Part shown: positions 47,701 to 62,700 of the stretch, piece by piece
How the letters are laid out: each line of letters opens with the position of its first letter
Numbering within the stretch: the stretch's first letter is position 1
DNA from: Hormiphora californensis
Lineage: Eukaryota; Animalia; Ctenophora
Direction: 5' to 3'
NCBI GenBank assembly: GCA_020137815.1
Contig: CM035354.1
Coordinates: 7,254,001 to 7,318,000 of the forward strand
DNA length: 64,000 bases
Program-made: the position numbers and the translations under genes
The notes under the pieces: generated by a model
What the model was told of the DNA's origin: nothing
Databases searched by the model: none
What the model saw: only the letters and a program-made list of their open reading frames with translations

Positions 47701-50700
47701 TTTGACGAGAAGTGGGACAAAGCATCCGACTTCTATAAAACTCCAGGTAAGGTTCTAAATTCAATGTTTATCATTGTATTTAACATGGAAATCGTGTACC
47801 ATATGAGTAATAGTTTTTGGTGATTCATATGAATAATGGTTCATCGGTTGACATTTGCACGATCACGGAGCTTTGGTATGGCTGATTTAACCATGAAAGT
47901 TACAATAATAATATCCGCTTTTTCCAGACTGTCCTGCCATAACTGTTGAAGGATCAACACAAGGACACTGGACTGCCTCACCAACGGGGACAACTGTTGA
48001 ATGTGCTACCAACAATGTCCTCTTGGGAAGTGCAAAACTGACTTGTCAGCAAGATGGATCATGGGAAAGTGATCTGCCCCATTGTGCAGGTACGTTTAAT
48101 TATACAGGAAATCTTTATTATTATCTCATCATATTATCATCATACAATTAAACTATCTCACCATATCTCATTGAGATATGGTGAGATATGGTGAGATAGT
48201 TTAATGTCATGCTGAGATTCTCATATCGGTAGACCCCCCTAAAATTAATGATAAATTGAATTACTAATGTCAGTGTCAACTAAGATATCTAAGTGACTCT
48301 TTTACCCTAAAAGACCCACTCCAGAGAGCTTGCTTTTTTCGTATGGGGCTTTTTGTACTGTTTGTCTGTTTGTTTCAATCTGTCATTCTGTCATGTTTAC
48401 TTTAGTCTGTCTATTTGTTTCATTCTGTCATTCTGTCTGTCTGTTTGTTTCAGTCTGTCATTCTGTCTGTATGTTTGACACAACTGCAACTTACCAAGAA
48501 CCTCAAAGAGGGCCTGCTCCTTGGTCTTCAGGCAGGGTTGTAGGAACCATAGGAATGGCATGGACTTCCTCAAATGTGGTATTATGTAGTGCAGTACCAC
48601 CCCAACCGTTATAGTCAGTATCTGCATTACCTGTGGAGAGAGGGAGACTGTGAGAGAGAGGGGGGACTGTGAAATGAAGAGGTGGACTGTGAAATAAAGA
48701 GGTGGACTGTTAAATGAAGAGGGAGGGACTGTTAAATCTACCAGGTTTACAGTGATCAGTGATTGTAGTGCTACTCAGGACAGACTATGATTTGTTTATT
48801 AGGACGTCTTAGGAGAGAGTATGATTCTGAGGAGCAAGTGGAAAACTTGTCGGGTGAGACGTGAGACAGATAATTTGAGATGTGAGCACGATATTATTTC
48901 GAAGTGAAATATCCTTCAAAACACAATATTTTGCGAAAGACCAATAATCAAAAGTAATAAAAACACTCACAAACACACACACAACATTATAAATACGAGG
49001 TGGGAAGAGACAACTTCTGTGCAATTGACCTTCTCAGAGCCACATTGTTACACCTACTCAACATCACAATCAAATTCCGTGTTGCAGTCTCATCCAACCT
49101 GGAACACTGGGCCTTTCCACAAATCTCCTCAAAAAACGCCGTATCAATACAGAACACAGATCGGTAGTCCTCGAAATAATCCATGTTATCTTCAATAACT
49201 GCATTTCTGAACACATACGGAACCATATCGGACACACCGTATTTTTGGGCCACAATGAGCGACTCGTAGAAAATGGGATGACGAAACAGGAAAGACCTGA
49301 CGTCCTCCGTGGTAAGGTTTATCAGCGATCCTAACCCCTTCTTTTTAAACATTAGGTGGAGACCAACTAGCCGGGCATTGACAACACACTCCATCTGTTT
49401 ATCAAATGCCTGGTCTAACTTGTAGAACCTCGCTGCCTTCTTGTACATCTTGACACACTCTCCCAACATCTCCTCCTTACTCCCCCTATCACCTGCCATT
49501 TTATCCGCCCTGCCCTCGTACATGTGGGCCAGTTCGGCGTGTTTACCAAACTGAAGACACACTTCCTCCTTCTTGAGCTTGTCATCAGGATGTTGGTGTT
49601 GGAGGTATGTGAGGAGGGCCACCTGGTAGTGAGGTTTTTTAGCCGCATCCGGTTGCGATAGGAACAAGGTGAACTTATCAAACTGGTACAGGATGTCACA
49701 AATCTGCATCATTCCAGAATATTCCTCACTTTCAAAGAACAGATCAACTAATTGCTGATGATACCCAGCCTGGGCGAACTTGTTAGCTTTAGCAGCTACA
49801 AAATCAAGCACCCTCTGGCGGCCCACTGAGCAGTGTCCTCGTGTAAAGGAGTGGTGAGCAAACAGGATGAGATGGAGAATGTTCTCAGGGGGAGCCAGGG
49901 TGAGGAGTTCGTCCCAGATTCTGTTTCCCAGATCCCGATGACATGTCACCAAGTCGCATAGTTTCTTATACTCGGACAGAGGTAGCTCTGCTGTGAAGTT
50001 AGACTGAATCATCCATTTGTGGACAATATGGATGGTATACTCGATTATATCTTTCTCACTGATGTTTCTAAATACCACAAACTGCTTCAGTATTGACCCG
50101 GGAGCTTTCTTTTTCAGTAGCAACTCAAGTTGTTTCCTAGCTTTCAGGTTATGCCGATAGACCGTTCCCAATTCTTTACAGGACTTGTAGAAGAAGGAAA
50201 ACATCTCACATAGACCAGTTCCATACCGCACATAGGTCCCAAGTAAATCCCCGATATACAGCTCATCAAATGCCGCCCAGGACTGTTCTCTGGAGTATTG
50301 TGTGCCAGATATTGATGCAGCTAACAGTTGTTCGTCATAAAAAGTAGAGTTACCCGATCCAGCTTCATTACCCTTATTGGATCCCCTCCTAAAACTCCAT
50401 TCCTTGATTGGAGAGCCCGGTTTAGCACCTGAGGCAAGGATTATAGTGGTATTGGAGCACACAGAGAACTGGTCTTTAACCAGGGCTCTCACTGGTTTGG
50501 AAAGTGACTTCACCGAAAGATACTCCTCCGCAATGTCCTGACAAGCCCGTACCAACAAGAGATCATCAGATTTAATGTCAAATAGAGTTGCTACTTTCTC
50601 TGCCCGTTCAAGGGACCCCGCCAGGAGGAATTCATTAATGAACTCGGTGAGTTTCTCCTTGATTGCCTCATCAATGGTAATGGGGTAATCCGGGAAGCGG

Positions 50701-59700: not shown

Positions 59701-62700
59701 GCGGCGCAATTGCTCCCCCTGGCGCAATTCTTTTCGTGAAAAAGTGAATCGAGTCTTTGGGGTGACTTCGTTCAAGGGTAACTTATAGCTAACTTTTACT
59801 ACAACTCTAGACCGTAGGGTAGCAGCGGTTGACGTTCATATTTAGTATGTTTCATGTTTGGGGAACTCACTACCTATCACTCATCCCTTTACACATGCTT
59901 TGGTGGGTCAAGAGGAAATGATGCGATATGGCAATGAAAATGAACTTTTTAGTCTTTCCCGTTATGTTATTCTGATTCAAAATTGTCTGAAAATTCGTTC
60001 TATCACTAGCCCGAAGCTGTATCTCAAACGAGACCGGCGCTAGAGCTCACAGAAAAATGTCCAGATTTTTAGTTGTCACCCGTTACATACCTGTCAAACT
60101 GAATAACGAAAGATTTCCACAGGAACTTCACATTGTAGTGTTTCTTCTTGATCGACTGTGTACTGGTTGTTTTGGCATGTGCTAGTTTCATTGAGTCCTG
60201 GGGCCGGAGGTTCGCGTAGGAGGGCACCTGCTCATCAGCTGGTATTACCAAGTCTCCATCAACTGAGATGAAAGGGAATGTTGTTATAATCCGAGATTGG
60301 GGTGACATCATTTGTTTGCCATGCTACACATGGTGTGGTAAAATAGCAAAGTTTATGTCCCCGGACTAGCCAGAATCATAAACTCACGAAACAAAGGACC
60401 ACACTTACATAGTCGTTTTAGGTCCTCAGGTTCATTCTGGGTCCACCAGGAGATGGCAGCTACATTGTTTGCCCAACTATACTCAGATGTCATCTGGAGA
60501 GATATTTTAAGTTCAATAGATGAGACAGAGAGAAACAGATCAAGAGAGAATAAAAAAGAGGGAGAAAGAGGGAGGGGAAGTTGTTTGGTAAAGAGGGGGA
60601 GACAGTGGGGTACTACCCGCATCCTCCATATCCTTAAATCGATAGTGTTTACGCAGTGAATACAGAGCGAATGCAGAGTGAATGCAGAATGAATGCAGAG
60701 TGAATGCAGAGCGAATGCAGAGCGAATGCAGAGTGAATGCAGAGCGAATGCAGAGTGAATGCAGAGTGAATGCAGAGTGGTTCCAGAGTGAATACGCAGT
60801 GAATGCAGAGCGAATACGCAATCATTGGTAATATCCTACCAGAACTAGAATGCCGTAAATACGCAGTGATAAAAAATTGGATATTGTATGGTAAGTCACA
60901 AGCAAACAGGCATGAGGCCGGTAACGCAAACAAAAGGGAGAGGGAGATAGAGAGGGAGAGGGAGATAGAGAGAGGGAGATAGAGATAGAGATAGAGAGGG
61001 AGATAGAGAGGGAGATAGAGAGGGAGATAGAGAGGGAGAGGGAGATATAGAGATAGAGATAGAGATAGAGATAGAGATAGAGAGGGAGATAGAGAGGGAG
61101 ATAGAGATAGAGAGAGGGAGATAGAGAGAGGGAGATAGAGAGAGGGAGATAGAGATAGAGATAGAGATAGAGATAGAGAGGGAGATAGAGATAGAGATAG
61201 AGATAGAGATAGAGAGGGAGAGGGAGAGGGAGATAGAGAGGGAGAGAGAGACAAAACCACTTTTTTCGGGTTGTAGCAACAATATCCAATTTTTTATCAC
61301 TGCGTATTTACGGCATTCTAGTTCTGGTATGATTGCGTATTCGCTCTGCATTCACTGCGTATTCACTGCGTATTCGCTCTGTATTCACTGCGTATTCACT
61401 CTGTATTCACTGCGTAAACAGTTCTGGTAGGATATCCCCAATGATTGCGTATTCACTCTGCATTCACTGCGTATTCACTCTGGAACCACTCTGCATTCAC
61501 TCTGCATTCACTCTGCATTCGCTCTGCATTCACTCTGCATTCGCTCTGCATTCACTCTGCATTCACTCTGCATTCGCTCTGCATTCACTCTGCATTCGCT
61601 CTGTATTCACTGCGTAAACACTATCGATTTAAGGATATGGAGGATGCGGGTAGTACCGACAGTGGATACAAGTTATTTGGTAAAGAGGGGATTAATATAA
61701 GTTACCTGGGGAGGGTAGGAGGGTGAAACATCATGATCCAAGGTTGCTGCTGTAGAGGTAGCTGGTGATGTATCATCTGTAGCCAAATCAAACATGTACT
61801 GGTGCTCCTTGCCTGGGGGAGTAATTACAGTTAGTTTTTTACTAAGTACATGTAACCTACTTTAACAACAATCTGCGTGATCCAATAGGTCAGTGAATAC
61901 TTACTAACTTCTGACCGTCTACAAAACTCAAGTAGTAAACGAAACTAATTAAGACACATTCTACTCACCATTTTCATCATAGTACTTGTGAAGTGCACCA
62001 GGAGTTGTGTCGGTATGATCAGTTGCCATGTGAACGGTGGCTGTGGTTGCTGTGGATGTGTTTACCCCACCACCACCGCTACCACCCCTAGATCCAGTAG
62101 TTCCACCTTCCGAGTCAGGCGTCTTCAGGCTAGAGGAAAGAGACGCAGCGTTGCGGTGCCGGATATCTAGGTTTCGCCTATCTAGATTTCGTGCGAGTTG
62201 GTTTTGTCGTATCAAACGGTAGTGTACCGGCATCTCTGGGAGAGGGAGGGGATTGTCAGTGTTAGTTGTCCATCAAGTTTTAATAATAGGAACCCTCTCC
62301 CCTCCCTCTATTTTTCTCTATCTCGCTATCTCTCTTTCTCTCTCACCTGTTGACCCAGTATCAAAACTCCTAGTCTCCCTCAACTGGTGAACATTGCTCT
62401 CGCTGGGCGCTGTTTCTGGTATAGCTCCAATCGTCTTCATTGCTCGTAACAATCTTGGTGACATCGCCGGAGCCTGGCTACCTGACGGACTTGCCATTCC
62501 CCCTTCATCAACAGTTAAATCCGTCCGACACACCTTCCTCTTGCTTCTCTCTGGTGCGAGGGGTGGGGGTGAATCCTCTGGGATGGTTGAGATACTGATT
62601 GTGTCAGAGTCAGGATGGTGGTTTGGGGGACCGCTGGTAAAACTTGTCGTGGTAACACCATCCCGTTCTGAGGATATTCCCTCTTCCTCCTGGTCATTGA

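What the first reader, a model, noticed from the sequence alone, without database searches (positions are those of the whole stretch)
48632..60089. Same-strand nested genes (SPG11 and a GPCR) inside PCNX introns: candidate intron-encoded operon released by SL trans-splicing
Seen: PCNX exon ...AAQPHLVL (ends 56506) must splice to VMQILTIT... (~48631) across a 7.9-kb intron containing a complete co-oriented SPG11 with its own acceptor (TTTTAG at 56011), intron and 3' end. Likewise ...IQFDR (60090) splices to LHLERLL... (~58211) over a co-oriented GPCR whose ATG is 2 nt after CTCTCCAG and whose stop is ~190 nt from the host acceptor. Known: nested genes are mostly antisense because same-strand splice and poly(A) signals disrupt the host; ctenophores use SL trans-splicing. 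Inference: guest acceptors are reserved for trans-splicing, so guests could be matured from the host pre-mRNA or excised intron, or compete with it as a mutually exclusive switch. This needs a mechanism separating cis from trans acceptors and suppressing internal polyadenylation.
Basis: partly seen in the sequence, partly recalled or inferred. Interest (0 to 1): 0.8.

Follow-up and report, generated by a model that had tools for sequence, protein, structure and literature searches.

The report
Comb-jelly gene hosts same-strand nested genes
A pecanex gene, likely from a comb jelly, carries reading frames for six other genes in its introns, two of them (spatacsin and a receptor) on its own strand, a layout already reported as common in comb jellies; the two likely start from their own promoters inside the host rather than being released from its excised introns, which no RNA data here could test.

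Summary
The nesting is real. A 37-exon pecanex model reads open for 1,973 codons, and both disputed junctions are collinear with homologues. Intron 15 (7,875 nt) holds an intact co-oriented spatacsin (SPG11) and intron 9 (1,880 nt) an intact 333-aa GPCR; four more guests lie antisense. Two of six parallel is the share reported for human (75 of 227), and parallel nesting is already reported as frequent and unexplained in Hormiphora. The spliced-leader reading could not be tested: no RNA holder was listed. Sequence evidence is mixed. The 56011 acceptor is T-rich and unlike all 36 host acceptors, but a candidate upstream SPG11 exon (ATG 20 nt after the host donor, strong in-phase donor at 56343; about 1% by chance) would make it an ordinary cis site and put the SPG11 start in or before host exon 15. 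That rules out release from the excised intron but fits either an internal promoter (best reading) or a host-derived either/or switch. All six mis-spliced chimeras tested hit early stops. Verdict: a known kind of arrangement, a good test case for an open question.

The parts
23709..63822 (-). Host pecanex (PCNX) gene, 37 coding exons modelled, 5' end beyond the window
   Evidence: open frame 1,973 codons, 36 GT-AG introns, Pecanex_C, blastp to 34 long homologues
60091..60262 (-). PCNX exon 9 (upstream of the GPCR intron); donor score 11.2, above the median 8.4
58211..60090 (-). PCNX intron 9, 1,880 nt, hosts the co-oriented GPCR
59967..60086 (.). Likely multi-copy repeat at the start of intron 9
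   Evidence: 6 of the 8 listed short contigs of run X1 match here at 83-92%; inferred
59121..59524 (-). Guest GPCR exon 1 (acceptor AG ends 59525, ATG 59522)
   Evidence: 7tm_1 E 0.0055; acceptor cis-like, score 7.7
58404..59003 (-). Guest GPCR exon 2 to stop; its acceptor is weak (2 of 36 host sites lower)
   Evidence: 7tm_1 E 5e-8
58385..58390 (-). AATAAA 14 nt after the GPCR stop, candidate poly(A) signal
56506..56613 (-). PCNX exon 15; may double as SPG11 5' UTR
   Evidence: host exon; shared use inferred
48631..56505 (-). PCNX intron 15, 7,875 nt, hosts co-oriented SPG11
56344..56485 (-). Candidate SPG11 exon 0: ATG 20 nt after the host donor, 47 open codons, phase-1 donor scoring 8.4
   Evidence: 19 of 1,500 shuffles; 1 of 66 non-coding blocks; coding score ambiguous; not shown by RNA
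56185..56245 (.). Short hairpin (inverted repeat), MITE-like; one arm recurs at 38381-38397
   Evidence: the MITE label is my inference
56011..56130 (-). T-rich tract (48% T, 12% C), branch-like CTAAC at -32 and TAG acceptor at 56011
55858..56010 (-). SPG11 exon 1 (153 nt); three out-of-frame ATGs precede the in-frame ATG at 55975
48987..55690 (-). SPG11 exon 2 (6.7 kb) to stop; strong acceptor behind a (CT)n tract
48795..48800 (-). The only sense AATAAA in intron 15, about 190 nt after the SPG11 stop
48495..48630 (-). PCNX exon 16; acceptor score 15.2 (median 11.1)
55988..57220 (.). Cluster of a palindromic motif (GTTACCATGGTAAC and variants) in PCNX introns 13-14 and SPG11 exon 1; candidate internal promoter element or simple repeat
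   Evidence: 8 of 16 window copies within 1.3 kb; likeness to the RFX X-box is recalled, not tested
47187..48148 (+). Antisense guest in intron 16, partial model with a sushi domain; start not located
42349..44208 (+). Antisense guest in intron 20: ASC (ENaC/DEG-type) channel, 619 aa
33297..35103 (+). Antisense guest in intron 28: second ASC channel, two exons
25705..26728 (+). Antisense guest in intron 36: GPCR-like
   Evidence: 7tm_1 E 1e-4; start uncertain

Best explanation
SPG11 and the GPCR are intact same-strand genes lying in pecanex introns, and each is likely transcribed from its own start site inside the host gene, likely receiving the spliced leader as most comb-jelly mRNAs do, while the host RNA is predicted to skip them by ordinary splice-site competition. 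Shown: both reading frames, their orientation, the host junctions that must be made, the splice-site scores and the early stops in chimeras. Inferred: (1) SPG11 likely starts at ATG 56485, so its promoter would lie upstream of host donor 15, in or near introns 13-14, and host exon 15 would serve as its 5' UTR; the PCNX-or-SPG11 choice would then be between two equal donors 162 nt apart (56505 to the far acceptor 48631, or 56343 to 56011). (2) On host transcripts the guests' short internal introns (167 and 117 nt) would be removed first by intron definition, using up the one strong guest acceptor; what remains at 56011 is a poor cis site, and the host's own far acceptors are strong. (3) Mis-joined RNAs would be cleared by nonsense-mediated decay. 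(4) The guests' AATAAA would be suppressed on host RNA by the same means as the 22 other intronic copies (U1 protection, from general knowledge).
For: Host acceptors of introns 9 and 15 score 14.3 and 15.2 against a median of 11.1; 56011 scores -7.1, below all 36; the GPCR internal acceptor scores -1.5, above only 2 of 36. 6 of 6 chimeric joins tested stop within about 4-25 codons. 24 sense AATAAA in 11 of 36 host introns. Exon 0: in-phase ATG-ORF-donor pattern in 19 of 1,500 shuffles and 1 of 66 non-coding blocks; its donor equals the host donor, 8.4 and 8.4; it turns three out-of-frame ATGs in good context into harmless internal ones; it gives 436 residues before the first human anchor, against 434-437 expected from scaling by five other comb-jelly-like ORFs and 377 without it. 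8 of 16 copies of a palindromic motif cluster within 1.3 kb around this start. Antisense guests cannot be made from the host RNA, so four guests in this same host already need internal promoters (inference). Parallel share 2 of 6 matches human 75 of 227, where no spliced leader exists (passage).
Against: No transcript, start site or leader junction was seen. Exon 0's coding score is ambiguous (53 of 151 non-coding frames score as high; 12 of 136 coding windows as low), no homologue of it was found and it was found post hoc; scaling by the window's own protein would expect 474 residues. The SPG11 internal acceptor (15.6) is as strong as the host's, and the GPCR first acceptor is cis-like behind a strong host donor only 566 nt away, a normal intron length here (23 of 36 introns are no longer), so competition alone explains the GPCR skip poorly. 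The motif cluster may be a simple repeat: it includes a 44-nt duplication and occurs inside coding sequence. The 260-nt gap between SHQ1 and ANAPC2 hints that polycistronic processing exists in this genome.
Confidence: 0.55

Rival explanations
1. Host-derived either/or switch (an 'alternative operon'): one transcript from the PCNX promoter gives either PCNX mRNA or, when the leader is trans-spliced to an acceptor in or near exon 15 (56613, 56525 or 56010) or at 59524, a guest mRNA, the upstream host exons being discarded as a long outron.
For: If exon 0 is real only 20 nt separate host donor and SPG11 ATG, so the SPG11 precursor must include host exon 15. The 120 nt before 56011 are among the 3 most T-rich of 1,512 host-intron windows, like the T-rich tract before the trans acceptor of the Hydra RFC140-flp operon (PMC3273482 passages). 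Host acceptor 56613 is itself weak as a cis site (-1.2). SHQ1-ANAPC2 spacing in the same window is operon-like (260 nt, no donor above 3.5). Precedent of one precursor giving host or guest: ChAT/VAChT (PMC4787279 passage and reference titles).
Against: No RNA evidence. Operons were 'not reported' in ctenophores as of 2021 (PMC7986045 passage), and my search 46 listed none. A nearby cis donor normally wins over trans-splicing in nematodes (recalled). A receptor tied to a broadly expressed host promoter is unexpected (inference). ATG-proximal acceptors are no better than chance.
Confidence: 0.3
2. Guests are matured from the excised intron lariat by leader trans-splicing and cleavage at their own AATAAA, so one transcript yields both host and guest mRNA.
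For: Each intron holds a whole guest frame with an AATAAA just after its stop; 56011 is unlike cis acceptors; the GPCR ATG is 2 nt after an AG.
Against: With exon 0 there is no YAG between the intron's first base and the SPG11 ATG, so no leader could be added on the lariat; without exon 0, three out-of-frame ATGs in good context precede the start. 3' cleavage would have to wait for the polymerase to pass the site and reach the host acceptor, then act on a free lariat (general knowledge). No such case for a leader-spliced mRNA turned up in searches.
Confidence: 0.05
3. RNA pairing between the two ends of each host intron loops the guest out and brings the host sites together, as I recall for the nematode cha-1/unc-17 locus.
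For: One of three comparisons gave a duplex better than 39 of 40 shuffles (-32.4 against -29.6 +/- 1.6 kcal/mol; longest perfect match 11 bp, reached by 2 of 40).
Against: The other two comparisons were ordinary (38 of 40 and 5 of 40 shuffles as good); no such arms among the 25 longest of 171 inverted-repeat pairs in 44000-64000. The precedent paper could not be read.
Confidence: 0.06
4. The layout is an assembly or annotation artefact, or pecanex is split into separate genes here.
For: No read or transcript of this species was available to confirm the joins.
Against: Both junctions cut conserved, collinear protein, all 36 introns are GT-AG with frame kept, and a full-length 2,096-aa pecanex is reported for Hormiphora where another annotation had split it in four (PMC8527503 section 31 passage).
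Confidence: 0.04

Closest known systems
Parallel nested intronic genes of Hormiphora californensis (Schultz et al. 2021, PMC8527503; read: outline, passages, section 38; supplements not readable)
   Same: [quoted passage not shown]
   Different: The main text gives no count of parallel cases, no mechanism and no link to the leader; it names pecanex only as a gene split by another annotation. Here SPG11 may share host exon 15, which would make it an overlap rather than a clean nest.
Same-strand nested and shared-exon genes of human and fly (PMC2330155 passages and Table 2; PMC4528330 passages)
   Same: About a third of nested pairs parallel in human (75 of 227); fly curators treat same-strand nesting as unremarkable and list 162 gene models with shared non-coding exons.
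   Different: Those species have no spliced leader; here the possibly shared exon is coding for the host and would be UTR for the guest, in the middle of the host gene.
Cholinergic locus ChAT/VAChT (cha-1/unc-17) (PMC4787279 passage and reference titles; the splicing-loop paper is recalled, not read)
   Same: A guest inside a host intron, with shared and guest-specific promoters; in nematodes alternative splicing gives the two proteins.
   Different: There the guest is in the first intron and functionally paired with the host; here guests are in coding introns 9 and 15, no shared function is shown, and no clear flanking duplex was found.
Leader-resolved operons: Hydra RFC140-flp (PMC3273482 passages), C. 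elegans, Oikopleura (bioRxiv 10.64898/2025.12.04.692336 passages)
   Same: T-rich tract and AG before a downstream start; short distance to upstream transcribed sequence.
   Different: In operons the downstream gene follows a poly(A) site and both genes are made; here the guest follows a host splice donor, so trans-splicing on the nascent RNA would destroy the host message.

Membership tests
Same-strand nested intronic gene | Flanking exons belong to one host protein and must be joined across the guest | tested here: met
   58 of 75 (intron 15) and 16 of 69 (intron 9, conserved motif crosses the junction) gap-free alignments; open frame 1,973 codons. By homology, not by RNA.
Same-strand nested intronic gene | Guest is an intact gene on the host strand | tested here: met
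   SPG11 2,273 or 2,332 aa, GPCR 333 aa, no internal stops, Pfam and PDB matches
Same-strand nested intronic gene | Guest transcript lies within one host intron | tested here: inconclusive
   Coding parts do; SPG11's 5' end may reach into host exon 15; start sites unknown
Leader-resolved operon | Spliced leader on the guest mRNA at the stated acceptor | not testable with these tools
   No RNA holder listed; the one run laid is a distant relative
Leader-resolved operon | Unpaired acceptor with a U-rich tract | tested here: inconclusive
   56011: T-rich and non-cis-like, but a donor at 56343 may pair with it; 59525: cis-like, weak donor (5.2) at 59870
Leader-resolved operon | Downstream gene follows the upstream gene's poly(A) site at short distance | tested here: not met
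   Guests follow host splice donors; no AATAAA before either guest in its intron (one ATTAAA at 56464, inside candidate exon 0)
Leader-resolved operon | No promoter of its own; depends on the upstream promoter | not testable with these tools
   needs CAGE, chromatin or knock-down data
ChAT/VAChT-type locus | Host and guest share an exon or precursor and are chosen by alternative splicing | tested here: inconclusive
   Two equal donors 162 nt apart fit this for SPG11; no RNA
ChAT/VAChT-type locus | Complementary elements flanking the guest (recalled feature) | tested here: inconclusive
   1 of 3 comparisons at 1 of 40 shuffles, two ordinary
Product released from an excised intron (snoRNA-like release; recalled class) | All signals needed to mature the product lie inside the intron | tested here: inconclusive
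   Met for the GPCR on sequence; not met for SPG11 if exon 0 is real, since no YAG precedes ATG 56485 in the intron

The most novel reading that the evidence does not exclude
Comb jellies use leader trans-splicing as a gene-level switch: the pecanex pre-mRNA becomes either pecanex mRNA or, when the leader attacks an acceptor in or near exon 15, a spatacsin mRNA whose start codon sits 20 nt past the host donor, with no promoter of its own. This would explain the many parallel nested genes of ctenophores and, with the 260-nt SHQ1-ANAPC2 gap, give the first ctenophore operons.
Probability: 0.25. Interest if true: 0.8.

Novelty: new member of a known kind. Interest (0 to 1): 0.45.

Why it matters
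How a host pre-mRNA splices over a complete same-strand gene is stated as an open problem for ctenophores (PMC8527503 section 38). This locus puts two parallel and four antisense guests in one host, so the antisense guests are built-in controls, and public Iso-Seq and chromatin data named in the papers should decide it without new bench work. If guests come from the host transcript, trans-splicing acts as a switch between unrelated genes and ctenophores join the lineages with polycistronic transcription. If they have their own promoters, the locus is ordinary, though it shows why automatic annotation fragments pecanex and spatacsin (a 763-aa RefSeq piece in Bolinopsis, a 1,601-aa piece in Pleurobrachia).

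Tried and rejected
RNA: no RNA holder listed for 50150-60100; the one run offered (X1, RNA guessed, contigs) shares next to none of the words. Laid at 80% likeness on 55815-60640 and 46610-55710 it gave short pieces mostly 80-90% alike (43 and 15 records), no joints and no leader-like loose end among those shown (6 of 21 and 6 of 13): no evidence either way. 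The two stretches were separate, so a join across intron 15 could only have shown as loose ends. No whole genome is held, so no genome-wide test. Synteny in other ctenophores: two metagenome scans found no SPG11 locus (21 and 303 pattern hits, none confirmed); no ctenophore full-length pecanex came up; the one close exon-sized hit, P0007, is on a 796-nt contig, so contig lengths could not link it to SPG11. No leader copy in the window (17-nt motif from PMC8527503, 0 matches at up to 3 mismatches). 'First acceptors are TAG, cis acceptors CAG' (5 of 8 against 1 of 36) looked like a cis/trans code but random YAGs are 57% TAG and ATG proximity is not above chance (P 0.18); branch-like motif in 3 of 8, P 0.053: not accepted. 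Loop-out pairing: not convincing. Exon 0 gave only a match to a designed repeat protein in the PDB, judged chance; the ESM Atlas gave no answer. CpG profile showed no clear island at either guest and the script stopped before the window-wide comparison. The promoter scan is for bacterial promoters and says nothing here. Not held and so not read: Derelle 2010 and two nematode papers asked for by recalled identifiers. PMC12221973 (passages) and PMC12220107 (passages) held nothing on nested genes and leaders together; PMC10282587 (passages) gives about 10-12% nested genes as normal across phyla. Supplements of PMC8527503, which list the nested genes and show the pecanex locus (Fig. S11), could not be read and may already show this arrangement.

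Full report
Source and host. The window is eukaryotic and likely from a pleurobrachiid comb jelly: its spatacsin is 95% identical over 1,591 aligned residues to a Pleurobrachia bachei model and 47-49% identical to five other ORFs, one of which clusters with a Bolinopsis microptera spatacsin. No whole genome is held. The minus strand carries pecanex. Using tblastn with 34 long homologues and the splice signals, I built 37 exons from 63822 to 23709; all 36 introns are GT-AG (35 end in CAG) and the frame is open for 1,973 codons. Hormiphora pecanex is reported as 2,096 aa, which would leave about 120 residues upstream of the window; that is consistent, not proof of species.

Observation. Intron 15 (56505-48631) and intron 9 (60090-58211) cut conserved protein: 58 of 75 and 16 of 69 spanning alignments are gap-free over 24 residues, the lower figure reflecting indels mostly just before a conserved motif that crosses the junction. 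Intron 15 holds SPG11 and intron 9 a two-exon, 333-aa class A-like GPCR, each with an AATAAA soon after the stop. The same host also holds four antisense guests: a partial sushi-domain gene, two ASC channels and a GPCR. The six longest-but-one introns are largely explained by guests; the median intron is 242 nt.

How unusual. Two of six guests are parallel. [quoted passage not shown] So the arrangement is a known kind with an unexplained mechanism. My searches listed no paper that links ctenophore nesting to leader trans-splicing; paywalled papers and the supplements were out of reach.

Tests of the trans-splicing idea. Direct tests failed for lack of RNA (see Tried and rejected). On sequence, with a weight matrix from the 36 host introns (leave-one-out): host acceptors of the two introns are strong (14.3, 15.2; median 11.1); 56011 scores -7.1, below all 36; the GPCR first acceptor is cis-like (7.7) and its internal one weak (-1.5); SPG11's internal acceptor is strong (15.6). 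The 120 nt before 56011 are 48% T, more than before any of 36 host acceptors and reached by 3 of 1,512 intron windows, itself included. This fits an outron. But an AG shortly before the ATG also occurs in free genes (mRPS18 2 nt, ANAPC2 7 nt, SHQ1 8 nt) and over all eight starts is not better than chance. Intronic AATAAA is common (24 in 11 of 36 introns), so the poly(A) problem is general, not special to the guests. All six chimeric joins tested stop within about 4-25 codons. Pairing between intron ends was not convincing.

A different 5' end for SPG11. If the mRNA began at 56010, three out-of-frame ATGs in good context would precede the start at 55975. Upstream lies an ATG at 56485, 20 nt after the host donor, then 47 open codons and a donor at 56343 that scores as the host donor does and is in phase with 56010, giving 2,332 aa. 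The pattern occurs in 19 of 1,500 shuffles of the region and 1 of 66 non-coding blocks, and the longer N-terminus fits the length expected from five related ORFs (436 against 434-437; 377 without). Against it: ambiguous coding score, no homologue found, post hoc. I put it at about 65%. If real, 56011 is a cis acceptor, intron 15 has no room for a promoter and no YAG before the ATG, so the SPG11 precursor starts in or before host exon 15. Eight of the window's 16 copies of a palindromic motif lie within 1.3 kb around this point (0 of 5,000 random placements, a null that ignores local duplication); the motif resembles the RFX X-box as I recall it, but may be a simple repeat.

Mechanism. Best reading (0.55): internal promoters, generic leader addition, host skipping by site competition and intron definition, leaks removed by nonsense-mediated decay. 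The four antisense guests show that internal promoters must exist in this host. Its weak point is the GPCR, whose cis-like acceptor lies 566 nt behind a strong host donor. Main rival (0.30): the host transcript is diverted to the guest by trans-splicing, an either/or switch; support comes from the tight SPG11 start, the T-rich tract and the operon-like SHQ1-ANAPC2 gap (260 nt from stop to acceptor, 157 nt from ATTAAA, no donor above 3.5), against the Hydra operon's 417 nt. Release from the excised intron (0.05), RNA loop-out (0.06) and artefact (0.04) are minor.

What was read. PMC8527503: outline, passages, section 38 whole. PMC7986045, PMC10282587, PMC12220107, PMC2330155, PMC12221973, PMC4528330, PMC4787279, PMC3273482 and bioRxiv 10.64898/2025.12.04.692336: passages around search terms only. 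Recalled and not checked: U1 protection from early polyadenylation, cis donors outcompeting trans-splicing in nematodes, the cha-1/unc-17 loop, the X-box consensus, the MITE label. Earlier notes of this scan on the same genome mention the leader and an operon-like pair; they are unchecked and used only as leads.

Verdict. Observation confirmed; interpretation partly supported and untested at its core; new member of a known kind; interest 0.45, rising to 0.8 if guests prove to be host-derived.

Noticed in passing
window 1832-1572, minus strand: SHQ1 stop to the acceptor-like TAG 7 nt before the ANAPC2 ATG is 260 nt, with ATTAAA at 1729, a T-rich stretch, a branch-like CTAAC at -29 and no good donor: operon-like spacing in a phylum without reported operons.
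   Followed up: partly
window 23709-23008, minus strand: Mitochondrial ribosomal protein S18-like gene starts 700 nt after the pecanex stop on the same strand, ATG 2 nt after TAG; no AATAAA or ATTAAA between them (Pfam S18 only E 0.07).
   Followed up: partly
window 55988-57220; also 15955-16010 and 27093-27140: Palindromic motif GTTACCATGGTAAC and variants cluster in three places in introns, and also appear inside coding sequence; function unexplained.
   Followed up: partly
window 42349-44208 and 33297-35103, plus strand: Two ASC (ENaC/DEG-type) channel paralogues, about 35% identical, sit antisense in different pecanex introns 9 kb apart.
   Followed up: partly
window 53600-54050, minus strand: SPG11 has an insertion of roughly 160 low-complexity residues shared with the Pleurobrachia model but absent from five other ORFs, whose alignments break here.
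   Followed up: no
window 44694-45574 and 60609-61657: Two long near-perfect inverted repeats (331 nt at 99%, 238 nt at 97%) in pecanex introns 19 and 7, likely foldback or MITE-type elements.
   Followed up: no
window 44556-44689: A 44-nt triplication at the intron 19/exon 20 border creates three strong tandem acceptors (44664, 44620, 44576); only the last was used in my model.
   Followed up: no
window 3738-5921: A 322-nt tandem repeat (5.2 copies, 97%) beside a zf-RVT fragment between SHQ1 and CYFIP, likely a LINE remnant.
   Followed up: no
window 8186-19500, plus strand: CYFIP (FragX_IP) gene with a candidate 21-nt non-coding first exon behind a T-rich TAG acceptor.
   Followed up: no
window 59771, 45843, 33486: The same 12-nt motif recurs in three pecanex introns, two of which host guests; possibly the end of a small repeat family.
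   Followed up: no
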